Part shown: positions 7,730 to 28,854 of the stretch, one piece after another | Layout of the letters: the number at the start of each line of letters is the position of its first letter | Numbering within the stretch: the stretch's first letter is position 1 | Source: a virus | Taxonomy: Duplodnaviria; Heunggongvirae; Uroviricota; Caudoviricetes | Length of the DNA stretch: 32,064 bases | Strand: one strand, 5' to 3' | Virus record (IMG/VR): IMGVR_UViG_2693429524_000019 | Coordinates: 1-32,064 of that record | The notes under the pieces: model-generated | Database searches by the model: none | The model's input: the letters and a program-made list of their open reading frames with translations, nothing else | Told to the model about the DNA's origin: nothing | Program-made: the position numbers and the translations under genes

Positions 7730-8071
7730 TCATTTCTTATTTTCAGATAGCACCAATCTACATTCTTCTTTTTTTAGAATCGTAAGAGATTGGCCACTAT
7801 CGGAAAAAGAATAACCGCACTCGGAAGCGAGTTGACGCAGAGCTATTTCACCATAACTATCACCATGTTCTTTCATTAACTCATCACCAAAATCCGCCTC
7901 ACGACCATTAGATACAGCGTCCATAGCCGCATTAGAAACAGCCCTATTTGTGATCTCTCTCTTGATGATGTAGTTATCAGCCAGTGAGGTGTGCAGTCCA
8001 AAAAAATCATTCAGCGTTCCACCTACACAAATTGTTGGAGTCAACACTGCGAGAAGGAATATTTTCTTCAT
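7730..8071 (-). CDS. secreted (Sec signal peptide) protein of unknown function, moron
   Basis: 113 aa, N-terminus MKKIFLLAVLTPTICVGG is signal-peptide-like; lies in an AT-rich block unlike flanking phage genes. Confidence 0.5.
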   Translation of the reverse strand: MKKIFLLAVLTPTICVGGTLNDFFGLHTSLADNYIIKREITNRAVSNAAMDAVSNGREADFGDELMKEHGDSYGEIALRQLASECGYSFSDSGQSLTILKKEECRLVLSENKK

Positions 8072-8106: not shown

Positions 8107-8349
8107 TTAATTACAGTACGTTGTGCCAGTATTGGTCGTCTGGCATTCACGATGTACTGCACTCCCATTAATCGTTCCTGTGGTATACGTAGTACCTGTA
8201 TTGGTTGTATAAGATTCTGTTTTAACTGTAGAACCACTACTGTCTGTACCAGTACAGTAAGTTGTTCCTGTATTTGAAGTGGTGCATGTTACCGCAGCCA
8301 CAGAAGACAAAGTCACAAAATATACCAGTAATAAGATCCATTTAAGCAT
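8107..8349 (-). CDS. small secreted Thr/Gly-rich cysteine-containing repeat protein, moron
   Basis: 80 aa from ATG at 8349 (overlaps the stop of the upstream baseplate gene); signal peptide MLKWILLLVYFVTLSSVAA; mature part has TNTGTTY(C/T) repeated three to four times; AT-rich codon usage. Confidence 0.5.
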   Translation of the reverse strand: MLKWILLLVYFVTLSSVAAVTCTTSNTGTTYCTGTDSSGSTVKTESYTTNTGTTYTTGTINGSAVHRECQTTNTGTTYCN

Positions 8350-9382
8350 TTGGTACCCCACTTATTTTCGCTATCGTATCAGGAGTGAGTAAACTTTTAC
8401 TCCCTTTAGCCAGGCAAAGCAGGTCCATATACCACGCCTGCCCTCGGGTGTCGCCAGTATAATCAATGCTGCCCACAATGTAATCACCGTCAGTATTAAT
8501 ACTGGCAGGCTGTGACATGCCTGGCAGACCGTTAACGTAGAGATTACCGTCGCTTTCAGACTCACCCAGTCGTGCTGGCGATTTCGCTACCTGGTCATTA
8601 CTCAAAGAGGCACGGTATACAGATGCCTGATCCAGACGAATAAGCCCACCGAGCTTAATATTTGGATTAATCAGACATCTGACATTTACGCCCGCTCCCA
8701 TTGTCTGCTGTGGCATACCGATAAGCCCGGTGTTAGCATTCAACACCGTAGCAACACCAATATATTTATCTTCAGGAACAATATTTACCAGATTATTTTC
8801 ATACCACCAGTTAGCTTTACACTGCCCTGCGATATGATTCATCAACCTTGATGTGTTTTGATAAACAACGCGACCCCGGGGAAATACCGTTTCCGGCATG
8901 TCAGGAACTGCACCGGATTCGATTCCATATGGTTCGAATGATTTCATACCCAGACTGAAAAGATCGCTGTACTTCCAGCCAGCTGCCACTGTGGTTTTCA
9001 CACTTGCGTTCAGGTGGCCTTCCCAGCTGTCAATACACTGCAACATGATCCAACTGTCTGTGGCATTATCTTTACCAGTGACAGTAAAACGGATATCTCC
9101 ATTGAATATCATACCAACGTTTTCATCAGGATAATTACCTGCTGCATCCGGTTGCCCCTTGTATCCGGCAATAACCTGTATACGCGAAAACTCCTTCTGC
9201 ATAATCCGGTTCTGAGTGGTAGGAGACAGGTTATAAACCTTAAAATTTCCAACAAATCCATTAAATATGGTCGCAGGCATTTTCTGAATATTGAAAGTGA
9301 CTTTAAGCTCAGAAATTTTTATCCCGTCTCCCTTATCATCAACAAGCAATAATTCAAAGTGACGCATCCAGTTTTTCGACAT
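8342..9382 (-). CDS. baseplate hub / tail protein (Mu gp44 / P-like)
   Basis: 346 aa, SD GGAG upstream, position after two small tail genes downstream of the tape measure. Confidence 0.5.
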   Translation of the reverse strand: MSKNWMRHFELLLVDDKGDGIKISELKVTFNIQKMPATIFNGFVGNFKVYNLSPTTQNRIMQKEFSRIQVIAGYKGQPDAAGNYPDENVGMIFNGDIRFTVTGKDNATDSWIMLQCIDSWEGHLNASVKTTVAAGWKYSDLFSLGMKSFEPYGIESGAVPDMPETVFPRGRVVYQNTSRLMNHIAGQCKANWWYENNLVNIVPEDKYIGVATVLNANTGLIGMPQQTMGAGVNVRCLINPNIKLGGLIRLDQASVYRASLSNDQVAKSPARLGESESDGNLYVNGLPGMSQPASINTDGDYIVGSIDYTGDTRGQAWYMDLLCLAKGSKSLLTPDTIAKISGVPNA

Positions 9383-9384
9383 TG

Positions 9385-9687
9385 TTACTCCGTGAAAACA
9401 TAGAGGTGTGAGAGCGTTCCAAGATCGAATTGCGTCGGATTCTCCTGCCCTGCCACATCGCAGAGCACCACCAGAGAAAAACCCAGATCCATATATCGAT
9501 ACTGTGCCAGCAGGTCAGCCCCCGTAATCATCGGTATACCTGATATAATGGCGGAGCCATTGCTGTCAGCAAGATCCAGAACCCAGTACTCGCCTCGCCA
9601 GATGACAGACAGGTGATAAACCGAACCGTTAATTGTGGTGGCAAAAGTCTGATTGTCAGCAACCAGTGGGATTTCTACGGCTTTCAT
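9385..9687 (-). CDS. small tail/baseplate protein
   Basis: 100 aa, tightly packed in the tail operon. Confidence 0.4.
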   Translation of the reverse strand: MKAVEIPLVADNQTFATTINGSVYHLSVIWRGEYWVLDLADSNGSAIISGIPMITGADLLAQYRYMDLGFSLVVLCDVAGQENPTQFDLGTLSHLYVFTE

Positions 9688-9690
9688 GAA

Positions 9691-10341
9691 TCACCTTCCC
9701 AGAAATAAATTGCTCAAATACCCATCAACAGTGGAGATACCTTCTTGCGCCATCTGTGGCAGCGATTTCAGAATGGAATTATTCGGCGGCACCGTTGTTT
9801 TGGTGCCTGTATTCTGCACAGCAGACGTTCCGACTCCCTCGGTCATATTGTTTTTCGGGGCAACCCTGACTGACTGCGTGGAGGTAATAATTACTTCCCT
9901 GAGGGTAAGTGTCGCCAGAAGCACATTTTCACTACTCTTATCGGTCGTAACCTCCAGCGTTTTTATCAACATATTGTTGTAAATACGCTTGCCGGTTGTC
10001 ACATCGAAAGGAATACGATTCCGCTGCAGGTTAAGCAGTTCCTGATACAGTTCTTTCGGGCTCAGCCCCAGTAAACTGGTAGCCGTCAGGTTACTGGCAA
10101 AATCAAGCAGCGATCCGCCTCCGGAAAAACCGGTTTCCATCACAACCTCAGAAGGGCGCCTGAATGCGTGTTCTGATATATAACCAGCGCCCTCACCACT
10201 GGCACCAGCATTCGTGGGCTGTTCAACCGGATGTTCCGTAATTTCCAGGGCGTCAGTGTGCTTTTCGGTAATAACCACATCAGGAATAATGATTCCTATT
10301 GAGCGGGTTCGCTGCTGCAGTAAAACAGATAAAAAGTCCAT
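9691..10341 (-). CDS. tail protein following the tape measure (DNA-circulation N-like)
   Basis: 216 aa, ATG overlaps the tape measure stop. Confidence 0.4.
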   Translation of the reverse strand: MDFLSVLLQQRTRSIGIIIPDVVITEKHTDALEITEHPVEQPTNAGASGEGAGYISEHAFRRPSEVVMETGFSGGGSLLDFASNLTATSLLGLSPKELYQELLNLQRNRIPFDVTTGKRIYNNMLIKTLEVTTDKSSENVLLATLTLREVIITSTQSVRVAPKNNMTEGVGTSAVQNTGTKTTVPPNNSILKSLPQMAQEGISTVDGYLSNLFLGR

Positions 10342-12347
10342 TACGCAGGTCCTTTCAATTGCTGTACCGCCCTGGCATTTACAGCCCCCTGCTTGTCAGC
10401 GATCAGATTAGCCGCCTCCTGAGGGTTGTTAACTCCATGAACATTTATAACAGTCTGCTGGTTAAGGCTGCCAGCGGCGGCCTGATACGCCAGCGGGCTG
10501 TTCCAGTTTGAATAACCTTCTTTGCGCGCCATCGACTGCATCAATGCTCCCATAGTCTGGGGATCTGTAAGATTCAATATTGCATTCGGTGATACTCCCA
10601 TCCATTTCGCAACATCCTGTGCATACTTTTTCGGATCGTTGTTATCACCTGCCGGGGCCCAGGTACTGACAATATCCTGAATAGTCTGTAATGCTCGTCC
10701 GGTTGTTTTCCCGGTAAAGTAACGCATGAGCTGGTTTTTCATCGCCTCCCAGCCCTCAAGAGCTGATTCGAAAAACCGGAACCCTTTACCGCTCACCGGG
10801 CGAATGTTCCCGGGGTTATTGTTGCGATCAGCAAGAGTACCGCCGCCGGGGATGTCGGGCTGGACGTTGGAGCCATGCACTACACCGTTACTCTGTCCCT
10901 GCCGGATAACTTTACCGGGTCCCCCGTGCAACCAGTCCATCCACGCAGGCCATTCACGGACCTCACTGACATCCCTGCGTCCGATATCTGTTTTTATACC
11001 AATAGCAGCCAGCGTGTCGCCGATAATTCGCTTCGTATACCTCAGTGAAGATTTTGCGCTATCGGCAATATTTTCTCTGTCACTAACAATATAGCCCGCG
11101 TAAAGCGCCCACAATTTAAGCCAGGGTGGGACCGGTAAACCTGATATTTTTCCGAAAGCCCCCAGAACCTTGGATACCCAGACACCCGCGATGAATGTAC
11201 CGAGGATTTCCAGTGCATTTTGCCAGCCGCCAACACCATCTTTTAGTTCCAGAAGGTGATCACGAAGCCAGGTGATCGCATCCTTCGCTTTATCTATTGC
11301 CGGTTGCCATTTTTCCCAGTCGATAAGACTGTTACCGCCTTCTTTCCATGTTTTGTAGTCTTCCCACAAGAGACCGAGAGCCACGATCAGACCGGTAATC
11401 AGCCTTATAGGTGACATCCAGAAAGTAGAGTTAAGTATCCGCATGGCGACAACCAGGCCCCCGATAACCTCTATCAGGGTTTTCGTTTCGGCATCCAGTT
11501 TCCCCCACCACTCGATGATATCGCCGACACCATCGACTATCCGAAATGCTACCCGCCCGACTATCTCACCCAGCCAGAGGATCCCCTTTATGACCTTTGT
11601 GATGGTGACTTCAATTTTGGGAAAATTTTCAATTATCTTTTTGCGCAGGTTATCAATCTGCCCCGCCAGTCCGTCCGCAAGATTCGATCCGATTTTGTCC
11701 CGCGCCATCCCGGCCATTTCACCGAGCGATTTCAGCGAGGTCATAAACCGGTTTGACGATAAGGCAGCCTGATCGGCATTAAATCCGATCGCTTTCACCA
11801 TTTCTGAATACTGAGCGCTGAACTGCCCCACACCACGACGCATGGCCATCAGGGTATTTTCGTCAATGCCCAGCATCTGCGCATACTGGTTAGCCCGGTA
11901 ATACGGCATACCGCTGAGCTTCTGGCCTACACCTGTAAAAATAGCGGCCATGTCACGCATGTTGCCGCTGGCATCACGGGTCTGTACGCCCAGGCGATTC
12001 AGAAAGCCTTCTGCTCCGGGATTGTTACGAATAAACCGGGAGAGGCTTTCCAGAGAAGATCGCGCAGCGTCCACACTGCCGCCAACCTGCGAAACCGCAT
12101 AGCCAATAGACTGAATTCCCTGGACTGTCGCGCCGGTGCGCTGTGACGCCCAGTAAAGATTATCCAGGCCGGAGGCGATCTTAGCCGTGAAGGCCACCAC
12201 GGACAGCGCAGCTCCTTCAACGGCCAGTCCCATTTTGATGACATTTGCAGTTGTACCGGCGAGGACAGAACCGAACTTTTTCGCTCCTGCATCATCCACA
12301 CTGAAGCCAAGCGAGACGAGGAAATCTTTAATAGTTTCAGCGTTCAT
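10341..12347 (-). CDS. tail tape measure protein
   Basis: ~668 aa from ATG at 12347 (strong SD GGAGAGAGGA; track start at 12368 is TTG); long helical N-terminal part, hydrophobic segments, C-terminal domain typical of tape measure proteins. Confidence 0.75.
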   Translation of the reverse strand: MNAETIKDFLVSLGFSVDDAGAKKFGSVLAGTTANVIKMGLAVEGAALSVVAFTAKIASGLDNLYWASQRTGATVQGIQSIGYAVSQVGGSVDAARSSLESLSRFIRNNPGAEGFLNRLGVQTRDASGNMRDMAAIFTGVGQKLSGMPYYRANQYAQMLGIDENTLMAMRRGVGQFSAQYSEMVKAIGFNADQAALSSNRFMTSLKSLGEMAGMARDKIGSNLADGLAGQIDNLRKKIIENFPKIEVTITKVIKGILWLGEIVGRVAFRIVDGVGDIIEWWGKLDAETKTLIEVIGGLVVAMRILNSTFWMSPIRLITGLIVALGLLWEDYKTWKEGGNSLIDWEKWQPAIDKAKDAITWLRDHLLELKDGVGGWQNALEILGTFIAGVWVSKVLGAFGKISGLPVPPWLKLWALYAGYIVSDRENIADSAKSSLRYTKRIIGDTLAAIGIKTDIGRRDVSEVREWPAWMDWLHGGPGKVIRQGQSNGVVHGSNVQPDIPGGGTLADRNNNPGNIRPVSGKGFRFFESALEGWEAMKNQLMRYFTGKTTGRALQTIQDIVSTWAPAGDNNDPKKYAQDVAKWMGVSPNAILNLTDPQTMGALMQSMARKEGYSNWNSPLAYQAAAGSLNQQTVINVHGVNNPQEAANLIADKQGAVNARAVQQLKGPA

Positions 12348-12977
12348 TATCCTCTCTCCATTTCTCAATGCGCCGCTGGTTATCTGCTTTTACCGCCAGA
12401 TGGTCATTCAAGAGAGCAATGTCATACAAATCGACAGAGCCATCTTTAAGTGCTGTATAGGGAATTAACCCGGCGTCAACCGGATTGAGAAGGTAGGACA
12501 GCCCGTCCGGCAGGCTGTTAAACGTCAGCCCTGTTGCAGGCTCTGCGTCGTGCTGGTAAGGGGTGTAGGCAAAAAATTTCCCAGCGAATCGGCGACCACC
12601 CGCGCCACCAGCTGCAGCATGACCAGCAGGTCAATATCATCAAACATCAGTTCGCCCTGAGTAAATACCGGAACCCATCCGTCCATATGACGCCGCGATA
12701 CCACCGCAAGACAGGGATGAATAATCGCATCGGTGTCATCTTCGGTCAGGGAAGACAGTTCCTCAGCGATACGCGGGAGCATGGTTTCAAACACCGGTTT
12801 TAACTGCTCTAATTTCACGGTGTCGATTTTGCCATCAGCAGGCAAACGGGAGCGAATGCTCCCGAAATCTGACATCATTCCCGCCAGTACTGGCAGAAGT
12901 TTGCGGGTCACTTTCAGCTGGTCAAAAACGCTGAGTTTTGCCGCGCGATATTTCACGCCTTTAATTTCGAATTCCAT
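12337..12977 (-). CDS. tail assembly chaperone, predicted -1 frameshift-extended product
   Basis: slippery heptamer T TTT TTG at minus-strand 12576..12570; the -1 frame stays open about 78 codons to a TGA at 12337, just past the tape measure start. Confidence 0.45.
12525..12977 (-). CDS. tail assembly chaperone (frame-0 product)
   Basis: 150 aa, located between tail tube and tape measure genes. Confidence 0.6.
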   Translation of the reverse strand: MEFEIKGVKYRAAKLSVFDQLKVTRKLLPVLAGMMSDFGSIRSRLPADGKIDTVKLEQLKPVFETMLPRIAEELSSLTEDDTDAIIHPCLAVVSRRHMDGWVPVFTQGELMFDDIDLLVMLQLVARVVADSLGNFLPTPLTSTTQSLQQG

Positions 12978-12980
12978 GTA

Positions 12981-13421
12981 TTAAAACTCCCCGAGAACCT
13001 GGTCAATCTTGCCACAGTCAAACACCCACGGCATCGTATTACCGGTTTTAGCGTTAGCGTTATCCGGTTGTTTCTGGAACGCAACACTGCGTGCTGTGAT
13101 GATGTCGCCGCTGACCTTGTTGCGGATCACGATAACGTTATTCCCCCATGTGGCAGAAGACTGGCTCTGTGCGTTATACGCCAGCGACAATTTTTTATTT
13201 GTCGGTGATGTCTTCAGAAGGTTAACGGTAATCGTCCCGCTTTTATCTGCATGGAGACTGTGCATCACTTCGCCATCAGCACCGATGGTCATGGTGTTTT
13301 TAGGACCGCCCATCGCAACCACAATCCCCTCTTCAGAACTTGCAGAACCGTACCCGAGGTCAATCGAACCGGTCGGCCCGGTCAGCGTCGCAGTGACATC
13401 CATAAAAGAATAGGTAGACAT
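12981..13421 (-). CDS. tail tube protein
   Basis: 146 aa, directly downstream of sheath gene. Confidence 0.6.
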   Translation of the reverse strand: MSTYSFMDVTATLTGPTGSIDLGYGSASSEEGIVVAMGGPKNTMTIGADGEVMHSLHADKSGTITVNLLKTSPTNKKLSLAYNAQSQSSATWGNNVIVIRNKVSGDIITARSVAFQKQPDNANAKTGNTMPWVFDCGKIDQVLGEF

Positions 13422-13431
13422 TCACTTCCCC

Positions 13432-14577
13432 TTAGCGAACAACGTTAATCTGTACGTCAGCGTAATGAACCGCGCCTGCAAGTTTTATTGCAGCCTGAAT
13501 CACCGGAGCCTTACGGGCTTCACGTTCTGATTGTGCCTGTTCATCCAGCGGCTGGGCGTATACGTAATAACCTTTGGGCAGTGTGTCACCTGATGACAAC
13601 TGACCAAGGTCGCCCCCGTTCCATACGCCCGAAGCAATCAGTCCATTCTGAACGGTCTGATCCAGTGATTTTTCAACATTTGATAACAGTCGGGTAATAC
13701 CGGCTTCAGTCTGGGGAACTTTCGTGGTGCTGGTATAAAGCAGGTTATAGAGGTTGGTCTGCACATAATTCTGTAACCAGTCCAGGCCGTGGCGTTCATC
13801 AAAGAAATCGCCGTTAGCCATCACTCCCTGCTGGAGGATAGCTGTATCATTCTGGTAGTACACGAACACATTGCAGTTTTTTGCATCAAGTGCCGATGCC
13901 TGGCTGACTGTCAGTGTTTCATACCCAACACCCGGCTCCTGCTTAAACTTGAGCGTAATCGCGGTATTACTGCCATTGAAATTAACCGTGAATGCCCGGC
14001 CAAATGCAGATAACGCAGCGTATTTATTACCCGATGAATATTGAATAAAACTGCGTGAATATCCGGCGGTTTTCAGTTTTGATGCCAAATCATCACTGGA
14101 TGCAGTCTGCAGGCATTTCTCATCGCTTGTCGTAATCGCCAGAATACGGCTTACAGAAGAGGATTCGATCGCCGCAGCCACTTTCAGCCAGTCTGCATCC
14201 GGAATATCTTCATCGTCTGCAATCCCCAGCCCATACCATGAAGTATAATCGAGCATGGCATTCACAGCCTGCTCCAGCGTCTCAGTCGTGGCCTGTTCGC
14301 TGTCTCCCCTCGTTTTCACCCAACGACCAACAAAAACCTCCTGAGGTTTCGGTGATTGTGAGAAAAACACCTGCGCAGCCTTATATTCTGGTGATTCCAC
14401 GCCAAAATCTTTTCCAATATCTTCCGCGGCAGAATAACGGCGAATGCGCTCACTTACCGGAATGATTGTGGACGGGCCGAGAATGAGTAATGCACCAAAA
14501 TTTCGCCCTGATGCTGCACGCGGCGACATGATCACATCAACATTAACAACGTTTGATACAGGCAAGCCCTGTGCCAT
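13432..14577 (-). CDS. contractile tail sheath protein
   Basis: 381 aa, size and position upstream of the tube gene. Confidence 0.65.
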
Positions 14578-26214: not shown

Positions 26215-26375
26215 GATAACGCCCTCTGGTTGATGAATTTAACTATCACCACCGTCAGGTTCCAATCATTGGGTGGTGAGACGTACAGGGTTGGAACTAC
26301 CGGATCAACCAACCGGCGAGCCTTTCGGCTCCCCCATACGCCCCACCATAATTCAGATGTGCGTGTGCTTACGAC

Positions 26376-26400
26376 AATAAAAAACACGCTCGCGGCGTGT
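26376..26400 (-). terminator. intrinsic terminator ~90 bp downstream of Q (tR'-like candidate)
   Basis: minus strand ACACGC-CGCGA-GCGTGT followed by TTTTTATT. Confidence 0.5.
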
Positions 26401-26488
26401 ATCTGTCGCGGTTGAATATCCGGGGTTCCAATCCCGACGCCAGATTTTGCTGGCGCGTGAGGAATATAGCCCCGGATAACAGATTGAG

Positions 26489-28488: not shown

Positions 28489-28644
28489 TTACTCCTCAGA
28501 TTCGTAAGCTGTGAAGACAGCGACCTCCGTCTGGCCGGTACGGATTCGTACCTCGCAGAGGTCTTTCCTCGTTACCAGTGCCGTCGCTATGACGGTTAAA
28601 CAGATGACGATCAGGGCGATTAACATCGCCTTTTGCTGCTTCAT
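28489..28644 (-). CDS. hokD: Hok/Gef family type I membrane toxin, HokD (RelF)-like
   Basis: 51 aa MKQQKAMLIALIVICLTVIATALVTRKDLCEVRIRTGQTEVAVFTAYESEE, near-identical to recalled HokD; SD AAGGAGAAG upstream. Confidence 0.8.
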   Translation of the reverse strand: MKQQKAMLIALIVICLTVIATALVTRKDLCEVRIRTGQTEVAVFTAYESEE

Positions 28645-28854
28645 AGCCTGCTTCTCCTTGCCTTTCGGCACGTAAGAGGCTAACCTACATTTGTGAGACA
28701 TAGATTGGGCCTCAGATTAATGTTAAGCGTCCTGCAAGACGCGTAATGTTAACTGGGGCTTTTCTCTATCTGCCGTTGGTGTTCATGCCTGAGGCAGATA
28801 GCCTCAAGCACCCGCAGCAATTCTACTTAACTCTCCTTTTCCCGCAAACCGTTT

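What the first reader, a model, noticed from the sequence alone, without database searches (positions are those of the whole stretch)
12337..12977. Predicted -1 programmed frameshift in the tail assembly chaperone
Ten codons before the chaperone stop there is a slippery heptamer T TTT TTG (minus strand 12576..12570). The -1 frame is then open for about 78 codons and terminates at a TGA just past the tape measure start, the conserved G/GT-type arrangement of tailed-phage chaperones.
Basis: partly seen in the sequence, partly recalled or inferred. Interest (0 to 1): 0.45.

Follow-up and report, generated by a model that had tools for sequence, protein, structure and literature searches.

The report
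Tail chaperone -1 frameshift site
An E. coli prophage makes a long and a short form of its tail assembly chaperone by letting some ribosomes slip back one base at a TTTTTTG run, the ordinary, long-known arrangement of tailed phages, which standard annotation misses here.

Summary
On the minus strand the chaperone ORF (12977..12525, Pfam Phage_TAC_15) contains an in-frame T_TTT_TTG at 12576..12570. The -1 frame then runs 77 codons to a TGA at 12339..12337, 8 nt past the tape measure ATG (12347).

The -1 extension is real coding sequence. It matches Pfam DUF6889 (E 9e-20) and shows third-position variation in the -1 frame. Across 79 distinct homologs (44-100% identity, many Enterobacterales) the extension is always in the -1 frame, about 77 codons long, and conserved from the first codon after the heptamer. 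Most copies have no usable start codon.

Synonymous sites of GGA AAT TTT TTG are almost frozen (TTT 78/78, TTG 75/76) while flanking codons vary freely. I found no conserved downstream RNA structure, as in phage P2, which shifts at the same TTTTTTG.

A 60%-identical relative, Klebsiella phage Mulock, already carries this frameshift in its GenBank annotation. E. coli genomes instead list a separate "DUF6889 family protein" starting at a CTG.

Verdict: a well-supported but ordinary new member of the G/GT-type chaperone frameshift, not experimentally verified. The phage is SEN34/Mulock-like, not Mu/SfV-like.

The parts
12525..12977 (-). Short form of the tail assembly chaperone (zero frame, 150 aa plus stop), the gpG / P2 gpE analogue
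12570..12576 (-). Slippery heptamer T_TTT_TTG (P-site Phe135 UUU, A-site Leu136 UUG)
   Evidence: In frame. Present at the same position in 160 of 167 related loci, with TTTTTTT in 4 and TTTTTTA in 1. Codon TTT 78/78 and TTG 75/76 among distinct homologs, against roughly 50% TTT and 3-20% TTG at other invariant Phe/Leu columns. Same heptamer as the P2 E/E+E' shift site (PMC3091744; P2 sequence).
12570..12582 (-). Extended nucleotide-frozen motif G_GGA_AAT_TTT_TTG (three overlapping X_XXY_YYZ heptamers)
   Evidence: One search lists GGGAAAT, AAATTTT and TTTTTTG, all in frame. GGA 73/79 and AAT 73/73. Third-position diversity 0.06 at codons 133-136 against 0.56 in the rest of the gene. Why the GGA AAT part is frozen is not explained.
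12337..12570 (-). -1 frame extension: 77 codons (AYTPYQ...REDNER) plus TGA. Only expressed as the C-terminal part of the 213-aa fusion (residues 1-136 of the chaperone plus the extension)
   Evidence: Coding periodicity in the -1 frame, diversity 0.277/0.243/0.568. Conserved from its first codon; 57 of 79 homologs have no ATG/GTG/TTG at or before extension codon 20.
12346..12462 (-). DUF6889 domain inside the -1 extension (fusion residues 173-211), the presumed T-domain / P2 E' analogue
   Evidence: Pfam PF21829 E 9.2e-20, 70.6 bits against a cutoff of 23.9. phrog_4364 E 1.8e-23. Databases hold it as stand-alone 43-78 aa ORFs named 'DUF6889 family protein' or 'NTP pyrophosphohydrolase'.
10341..12347 (-). 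Tail tape measure protein gene; its ATG (12347) lies 8 nt upstream of the extension's TGA
   Evidence: phrog_2276 tape measure E 4.6e-247. ATG position.
12981..13421 (-). Tail tube protein gene immediately upstream of the chaperone
   Evidence: Pfam KPP10_Orf10 E 8.8e-61. PGAP name 'DUF3277 family protein'.
13432..14577 (-). Tail sheath gene (DUF3383 type)
   Evidence: Pfam DUF3383 E 9.5e-100. phrog_205 tail sheath E 1.9e-133.

Best explanation
This is a programmed -1 ribosomal frameshift in the tail assembly chaperone gene of a temperate E. coli myovirus (SEN34/Mulock-like).

Proposed mechanism:
1. Most ribosomes read gene 12977..12525 to its stop and make the 150-aa chaperone.
2. A minority slip back one base with tRNA-Phe on UUU in the P site and tRNA-Leu on UUG in the A site of T_TTT_TTG. 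Alternatively, tRNA-Phe slips alone while the rare UUG codon waits to be read.
3. These ribosomes continue in the -1 frame for 77 codons and stop at the TGA just inside the tape measure gene. The product is a 213-aa protein: chaperone residues 1-136 plus a DUF6889 domain.
4. No downstream RNA structure is needed, as in P2.

Proposed function, by analogy with lambda gpG/gpGT (inferred, not shown here): both forms bind the tape measure protein through the shared N-terminal part. The DUF6889 extension recruits the tube protein to start polymerisation. Neither form ends up in the virion.

What is shown here: the sequence anatomy, the coding status of the -1 ORF, and selection on the heptamer at the nucleotide level.
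What is inferred: that slippage happens on the ribosome, how efficient it is, and what each protein does.
For: - Anatomy: in-frame heptamer, 77-codon -1 ORF, and a stop overlapping the tape measure start.
- Position: between the tube (KPP10_Orf10) and tape measure genes, with a Phage_TAC_15 domain.
- The -1 ORF is a conserved protein domain: DUF6889 E 9e-20, phrog_4364 E 2e-23. It shows third-position periodicity in the -1 frame.
- In 80 species-level genome loci plus phages, the extension starts at the last base of the chaperone match and lies in the -1 frame in all but a few damaged copies.
- Heptamer TTTTTTG is present in 160/167 loci. The -1 ORF is 75-82 codons in 160/167.
- Synonymous freezing: TTT 78/78, TTG 75/76, AAT 73/73, GGA 73/79, while neighbouring Asp, Ser and Leu codons vary freely.
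- Zero-frame amino-acid conservation stops at Leu136, and -1-frame conservation starts there.
- In several homologs a -1-frame stop (TGA or TAG) lies immediately 5' of the T run. This pins the shift to the T run itself (L159, L115, L149).
- No canonical start before the conserved domain in 57/79 homologs. PGAP has to use CTG.
- P2 shifts -1 at the identical TTTTTTG without a hairpin (PMC3091744).
- GenBank annotates the homologous frameshift in Klebsiella phage Mulock, whose sequence has the same GGGAAATTTTTTG.
Against: - There is no protein or ribosome-profiling evidence for this phage or any member of this family. The Mulock annotation is itself only a prediction, and its genome paper does not mention it.
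- No stimulatory element was found, so efficiency cannot be estimated.
- One homolog (L110, Salmonella) has a broken run (AAT ATT TTG) with an intact -1 ORF.
- The frozen GGA AAT 5' of the run is not explained by simple tandem slippage.
- The AF2 model of the extension is unreliable (pLDDT below 50), so its role as a tube-binding domain rests on analogy only.
Confidence: 0.88

Rival explanations
1. Transcriptional slippage rather than ribosomal slippage. RNA polymerase occasionally adds one extra U at the U6 run, giving an mRNA with U7 that encodes the same fusion in frame (junction …GNFF-AYTP…).
For: - The site is a homopolymer run.
- Public assemblies contain T7 variants encoding exactly this in-frame fusion (P0001, 213 aa, 16 member sequences) and T5 variants (P0002), which shows the run is length-unstable at some level.
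- Four homologs have T7 runs.
Against: - Six U residues is shorter than the runs of about 8-9 or more generally associated with productive transcriptional slippage in bacteria (my own knowledge of that literature; not checked here).
- The base after the run is selected: TTG 75 against TTA 1 at Leu136, whereas other Leu columns use TTA freely. This fits A-site tRNA re-pairing, not polymerase slippage.
- P2 uses the same T6G, and PMC3091744 describes that event as a translational frameshift.
- The T7 and T5 variants may simply be homopolymer sequencing errors.
Confidence: 0.06
2. The DUF6889 ORF is a separate small gene translated from its own (non-canonical) start, as PGAP annotates it (54 aa from a CTG) and as older records do ('NTP pyrophosphohydrolase').
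For: RefSeq and other sources list stand-alone DUF6889 proteins of 43-78 aa. Some homologs have a TTG, GTG or ATG inside the ORF.
Against: - Start positions are not conserved, and annotated lengths scatter from 43 to 78 aa.
- 57/79 homologs have no canonical start at or before extension codon 20, just upstream of the conserved LPDG motif.
- The -1-frame peptide is conserved from the first codon after the heptamer (ARTPRQRD…), upstream of every annotated start.
- Independent initiation would not explain the frozen synonymous sites of the heptamer or the invariant -1 phase.
Confidence: 0.04
3. Chance or decay: the T run and the open -1 frame are coincidental, or the chaperone gene is a pseudogene carrying an indel or sequencing error.
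For: TTTTTTG is common in the window, 17 copies. A few relatives do carry indels in this region: L059, L123, L154, L166.
Against: The same arrangement occurs in 79 distinct sequences from many genera down to 44% identity, with coding periodicity and a Pfam domain in the -1 frame.
Confidence: 0.02

Closest known systems
Phage lambda gpG / gpGT and the conserved tail assembly chaperone frameshift of long-tailed dsDNA phages (Levin 1993; Xu, Hendrix & Duda 2004, 2013, 2014, as summarised in PMC5009743)
   Same: - Two overlapping ORFs between the major tail (tube) gene and the tape measure gene.
[quoted passage not shown]
- A -1 extension with no start of its own, ending at the tape measure start.
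- The arrangement is conserved although sequence similarity is low.
   Different: - The heptamer differs: lambda uses G_GGA_AAG (from my own knowledge; not checked in the papers read here).
- This is a contractile-tail phage.
- The protein families differ (Phage_TAC_15 plus DUF6889).
- Nothing here has been tested experimentally.
Phage P2 gpE / gpE+E' (Christie et al. 2002, as cited in PMC3091744; RefSeq NC_001895)
   Same: - A myovirus, with gene order sheath, tube, chaperone, tape measure.
- Identical TTTTTTG heptamer, read as …G(x)F-L (P2: GGT TTT TTG).
- No downstream hairpin.
- The extension stop overlaps the tape measure start.
   Different: - No detectable sequence homology (hhalign probability 0.7%; no P2 Pfam families hit).
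- The proteins here are longer: 150/213 aa against 91/142 aa.
- The zero-frame tail is 14 codons against 6.
- The extra frozen GGA AAT lies 5' of the run.
Klebsiella phage Mulock CPT_Mulock_014/015 'tape measure chaperone' and 'frameshift product' (MN098327)
   Same: An orthologous gene pair: 60% identity in the chaperone, 64% in the extension. It has an identical GGGAAATTTTTTG motif, the same -1 phase and a 78-codon extension. The frameshift is already annotated as a joined CDS.
   Different: It is annotation only. The genome announcement does not discuss it. Its host is Klebsiella.
Pfam DUF6889 (PF21829) / PGAP 'DUF6889 family protein'
   Same: The -1 extension is a member (70.6 bits).
   Different: The family is catalogued as a stand-alone protein of unknown function. 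The evidence here says it is the C-terminal domain of a frameshift fusion.

Membership tests
G/GT-type tail assembly chaperone -1 programmed frameshift | Two overlapping ORFs located between the major tail/tube gene and the tape measure gene | tested here: met
   Tube 12981..13421, chaperone 12525..12977, -1 ORF 12337..12570, tape measure 10341..12347
G/GT-type tail assembly chaperone -1 programmed frameshift | [quoted passage not shown] | tested here: met
   T_TTT_TTG at 12576..12570, 14 codons before the stop
G/GT-type tail assembly chaperone -1 programmed frameshift | The downstream ORF has no initiation site of its own and is conserved as protein-coding | tested here: met
   No canonical start before the conserved domain in 57/79 homologs. 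DUF6889 E 9e-20. -1-frame periodicity.
G/GT-type tail assembly chaperone -1 programmed frameshift | Slippery site and frame relationship conserved among diverged homologs, including at synonymous sites | tested here: met
   160/167 loci have TTTTTTG. The extension is in the -1 phase in nearly all loci. Codons TTT 78/78 and TTG 75/76.
G/GT-type tail assembly chaperone -1 programmed frameshift | Two proteins with a common N-terminus are actually made, in a fixed ratio, and both are needed for tail assembly | not testable with these tools
   Needs mass spectrometry or western blot, plus genetics
G/GT-type tail assembly chaperone -1 programmed frameshift | The upstream ORF has a tail assembly chaperone fold or family | tested here: met
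P2 gpE / gpE+E' protein family | Sequence homology to P2 E and E' | tested here: not met
   hhalign probability 0.7%, E 0.086 over 16 columns. No P2 GpE Pfam family among the hits.
P2 gpE / gpE+E' protein family | TTTTTTG shift site without a downstream hairpin | tested here: met
Pfam DUF6889 (PF21829) | Score above the family gathering threshold | tested here: met
   70.6 bits against 23.9; fusion residues 173-211
   The tail and head genes hit DUF3383, KPP10_Orf10, Dit_like, Pam3_gp18, E217_GP41 and E217/Pam3 cement families. Only a widespread Mu-F-like head domain is present. The nearest phages are vB_EcoM-606R2, Yersinia YP3, Brunovirus SEN34 and Klebsiella Mulock/GZ7.

The most novel reading that the evidence does not exclude
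The most novel reading my evidence does not exclude has two parts.

1. The functional signal may be the whole 13-nt cassette G_GGA_AAT_TTT_TTG, not just T_TTT_TTG. Its three overlapping heptamers are frozen at synonymous sites across Enterobacterales. The upstream GGA AAT could tune a structure-independent frameshift through the E-site codon, an SD-like GGGA, or slippage at several registers.

2. DUF6889 would be a previously unrecognised 'T-domain' family that exists only as a frameshift product and recruits the DUF3277/KPP10_Orf10 tube protein. That would turn a domain of unknown function, once misnamed 'NTP pyrophosphohydrolase', into a defined assembly factor.
Probability: 0.3. Interest if true: 0.3.

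Novelty: new member of a known kind. Interest (0 to 1): 0.15.

Why it matters
The value is mainly in annotation. This prophage family occurs in 368 of 5,426 complete E. coli genomes and in many other Enterobacterales. RefSeq splits the long chaperone form there into a "phage tail assembly chaperone" and an orphan "DUF6889 family protein" with a CTG start. Older records call the orphan "NTP pyrophosphohydrolase".

Recognising the frameshift gives DUF6889 a context: it is the C-terminal domain of the long chaperone form. It also removes a spurious enzyme name. Finally, it adds a family with very clean nucleotide-level evidence to the training and benchmark sets used by frameshift predictors. It does not change what is understood about tail assembly.

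Tried and rejected
- **Downstream stimulatory RNA structure.** Single-sequence folds of 50 and 90 nt after the heptamer are no better than shuffles (z -0.82 and -0.47). RNAalifold on 20 diverse homologs finds only two invariant pairs and no covariation. Rejected.
- **Rfam.** No family matches the site at gathering thresholds.
- **Homology to P2 E/E+E'.** Rejected.
- **Solved structures by sequence.** No PDB relatives.
- **Internal repeat between the chaperone middle segment and the extension.** A MAFFT misalignment suggested this. hhalign probability is 0.14%, so it is an artefact.
- **Structure prediction of the true fusion alignment.** I used the naturally fused T7 variant P0001 instead. The N-terminal domain came out moderately confident, but the extension is below pLDDT 50 and says nothing about function.
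- **IMG/VR scan.** It returned only 94-100% identical relatives, which say little about conservation. The GTDB genome scan gave the useful diversity.
- **NCBIfam.** No model for either part.
- **Literature.** No paper mentions DUF6889. The Mulock announcement does not mention the chaperone.
Full report
**1. Observation**

On the minus strand, ORF 12977..12525 encodes a 150-aa protein. Bases 12576..12570 read TTTTTTG. They lie in that ORF as AA[T TTT TTG] (Asn134 Phe135 Leu136), a correctly phased X_XXY_YYZ heptamer.

Starting from base 12570, the -1 frame is open for 77 codons (AYTPYQHDAEPATGLTFNSLPDG…IEKWREDNER). It ends at TGA 12339..12337. The tape measure gene starts at ATG 12347, so the stop falls 8 nt inside it.

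The heptamer alone is not significant: 17 copies in the window against 9.8 expected. Only 2.4% of -1-frame positions inside the structural genes have 77 or more open codons ahead.

**2. Identity of the genes**

| Window coordinates (minus strand) | Assignment | Evidence |
|---|---|---|
| 13432..14577 | Tail sheath | DUF3383, phrog_205 |
| 12981..13421 | Tail tube | KPP10_Orf10 / "DUF3277" |
| 12525..12977 | Tail assembly chaperone | Phage_TAC_15 E 1.5e-30; phrog_1688 E 1.6e-61 |
| 10341..12347 | Tape measure | phrog_2276 E 4.6e-247 |
| 9691..10341 | Dit-like protein | Dit_like |
| 9385..9687 | Baseplate plug | Pam3_gp18 |
| 8342..9382 | Baseplate hub | E217_GP41 |

The head genes are Terminase_3, Phage_portal_3, a Mu-F-like domain, DUF2213, an E217/Pam3 cement protein and a PF09950 capsid.

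The -1 extension itself matches Pfam DUF6889 (E 9.2e-20, 70.6 bits against a cutoff of 23.9) and phrog_4364 (E 1.8e-23).

**3. Where it occurs**

- The 701-bp region is found in 368 of 5,426 complete E. coli genomes, always on the chromosome.
- At 97.7% identity it occurs in Escherichia phages vB_EcoM-606R2, 689R2, 611R5 and 683R1. More distant copies are in Yersinia phage YP3 (84%), Salmonella phage SEN34 (Brunovirus, 78%), and Klebsiella phages GZ7 and Mulock (65-66%).
- It is therefore a SEN34-like temperate myovirus, not a Mu/SfV-like one.
- PGAP annotates "phage tail assembly chaperone" followed by a separate 54-aa "DUF6889 family protein". That protein's start corresponds to a CTG codon (read).
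- Other records call the fragment "NTP pyrophosphohydrolase". Its annotated lengths scatter from 43 to 78 aa.
- Klebsiella phage Mulock is the exception. Its GenBank record carries a joined CDS named "tape measure chaperone frameshift product", and its sequence has the same GGGAAATTTTTTG.

**4. Comparative test**

A scan of one genome per species returned 80 loci from Enterobacter, Citrobacter, Pantoea, Photorhabdus, Serratia, Yersinia, Erwinia, Arsenophonus, Sodalis and others, at 38-85% identity.

- tblastn places the extension in the -1 phase, beginning at the last base of the chaperone match, in nearly every locus.
- Over all 167 loci held, the junction heptamer is TTTTTTG in 160, TTTTTTT in 4 and TTTTTTA in 1. 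It is broken in 2 (L110 TATTTTG; L166 T5).
- The -1 ORF is 75-82 codons in 160 loci.
- Among 79 distinct sequences, amino-acid conservation in the zero frame ends at Leu136. The 11-16-codon tail after it is variable. Conservation in the -1 frame begins immediately: aRtPrqrd…LP.Ge.yl.rPv.ag…Lk.G.vDL.diA.mND.Ld.kadN..ri..Wr..ner.
- Nucleotide diversity by -1-frame codon position in extension codons 152-205 is 0.277/0.243/0.568. The chaperone shows the same pattern in its own frame, 0.324/0.225/0.560.

**5. Selection on the RNA sequence itself**

At columns with invariant amino acids, the majority codon usually accounts for 35-85% of sequences. For example, Phe18 is TTC 46 / TTT 33, Phe112 is TTT 42 / TTC 37, and TTG is used in 2-16 of 79 sequences at other Leu columns.

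At the shift site the picture is different:

| Codon | Usage among distinct homologs |
|---|---|
| Gly133 | GGA 73/79 |
| Asn134 | AAT 73/73 |
| Phe135 | TTT 78/78 |
| Leu136 | TTG 75/76 |

Third-position diversity is 0.06 at these four codons against 0.56 elsewhere. The immediately preceding Asp, Ser and Leu codons vary freely: GAT/GAC, TCG/TCA/AGC/AGT, CTG/TTG/CTC.

In several homologs a -1-frame stop abuts the T run: L159 has GGT GAT TTT TTG, which gives a TGA; L115 and L149 have a TAG. The shift in those homologs must therefore happen within the run itself.

**6. No own start and no stimulator**

- 57 of 79 homologs have no ATG, GTG or TTG at or before extension codon 20, and no start position is conserved.
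- Folding 50 or 90 nt downstream gives z-scores of -0.82 and -0.47.
- RNAalifold on 20 diverse homologs predicts two invariant pairs and no covariation.
- Rfam has nothing at this site.

**7. Comparison with known systems**

The arrangement is the conserved tail-chaperone frameshift first shown for lambda G/GT. There the two products, in a ratio of about 30:1, bind the tape measure protein. The T domain recruits the major tail protein, and neither product is in the virion (review PMC5009743).

P2 gpE/gpE+E' is the closest mechanistic match. P2 is a myovirus, and its -1 shift occurs at TTTTTTG with no hairpin (PMC3091744). The P2 sequence reads GGT TTT TTG, and its extension stop overlaps the T gene start. 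The review notes 2- to 3-fold higher efficiency in P2-like phages than in lambda.

At the sequence level, however, the proteins here are not detectably related to P2 E/E+E' (hhalign probability 0.7%).

**8. Rivals**

- *Transcriptional slippage* at U6 cannot be excluded by computation. It is disfavoured by the short run and by selection for G after the run (TTG 75 against TTA 1).
- *Independent initiation* of DUF6889 is contradicted by the absence of conserved starts, by conservation upstream of every annotated start, and by the frozen heptamer.
- *Chance or pseudogene* is excluded by the comparative data.

**9. Unexplained residue**

The synonymous freezing extends 5' to GGA AAT. This makes three overlapping heptamers, G_GGA_AAT, A_AAT_TTT and T_TTT_TTG. 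P2 does not have this. Possible reasons are E-site codon effects, a weak SD-like GGGA, or slippage in several registers. None was tested.

**10. Verdict**

The finding is correct and well supported by comparative evidence. It is an ordinary instance of a long-known phenomenon, already annotated in one homolog (Mulock) though not in E. coli genomes, and it has not been verified experimentally. Its practical value is in correcting the annotation of "DUF6889 family protein" / "NTP pyrophosphohydrolase" ORFs as the C-terminal domain of a frameshift fusion.

Noticed in passing
window 28639-28813 (-), 26379-26456 (-), 26269-26353 (-), 26417-26469 (-): Rfam gathering-level hits elsewhere in the prophage: sok antitoxin RNA (116 bits), isrK Hfq-binding RNA (78 bits), and a P1/P7-type C4 antisense RNA with its a1/b1 target (76 and 50 bits). 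This suggests a hok/sok-type module and a C4-type immunity or antirepressor control region.
   Followed up: no
window 9478-9484 (-), inside ORF 9385..9687: An in-frame G_GGT_TTT heptamer sits 30 codons before the stop of the Pam3_gp18-like plug gene. Its -1 frame stays open into and through the downstream baseplate hub gene (8342..9382), 378 codons in all. It is probably just the neighbouring gene's frame being open upstream, but I did not check conservation.
   Followed up: no
window 12337-12501 (-); L002 3000-3164: RefSeq/PGAP annotates the -1 ORF as a stand-alone 54-aa 'DUF6889 family protein' whose start codon is CTG. Older records name the same fragment 'NTP pyrophosphohydrolase', with lengths from 43 to 78 aa. 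Both look like annotation artefacts of the missed frameshift.
   Followed up: yes
proteins P0001 (213 aa) and P0002 (152 aa), homologous to window 12337-12977: Public (Logan) assemblies contain variants in which the T6 run is T7 or T5. The T7 form is an in-frame chaperone-DUF6889 fusion with junction GNFF-AYTP (16 member sequences). The T5 form is in the +1 frame (24 member sequences). I could not tell whether these are homopolymer sequencing errors or real length variation.
   Followed up: partly
L110 (Salmonella enterica s1, CP191473.1) around 1899-1905; L166 and L094 (Apirhabdus apintestini CP138906.1): These are exceptions to the conserved site. L110 has AAT ATT TTG (broken run) with an intact 77-codon -1 ORF. 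L166 has a T5 run, which puts the extension in the +1 phase. L094, from the same genome, has an upstream frame break. These may be decaying prophages or homopolymer assembly errors.
   Followed up: partly
window 7730-8071 (-) and 8107-8361 (-): Two small ORFs sit between the baseplate genes and the hub gene. One is 113 aa with a signal-peptide-like N-terminus (MKKIFLLAVLTPTICVGG) and no Pfam hit. The other is 84 aa and Thr/Gly-rich, with repeated 'TTNTGTTY(C)' motifs. They could be a moron or surface-protein cargo inside the tail operon.
   Followed up: no
L098 (Chryseobacterium sp. 18061 contig) and phage hit H21 (Elizabethkingia phage EKP1): Flavobacterial records carry this enterobacterial-type chaperone region at about 70% identity, with the same GGAAATTTTTTG. 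That is surprisingly close for such distant hosts, which could mean contamination, misassignment or recent transfer.
   Followed up: no
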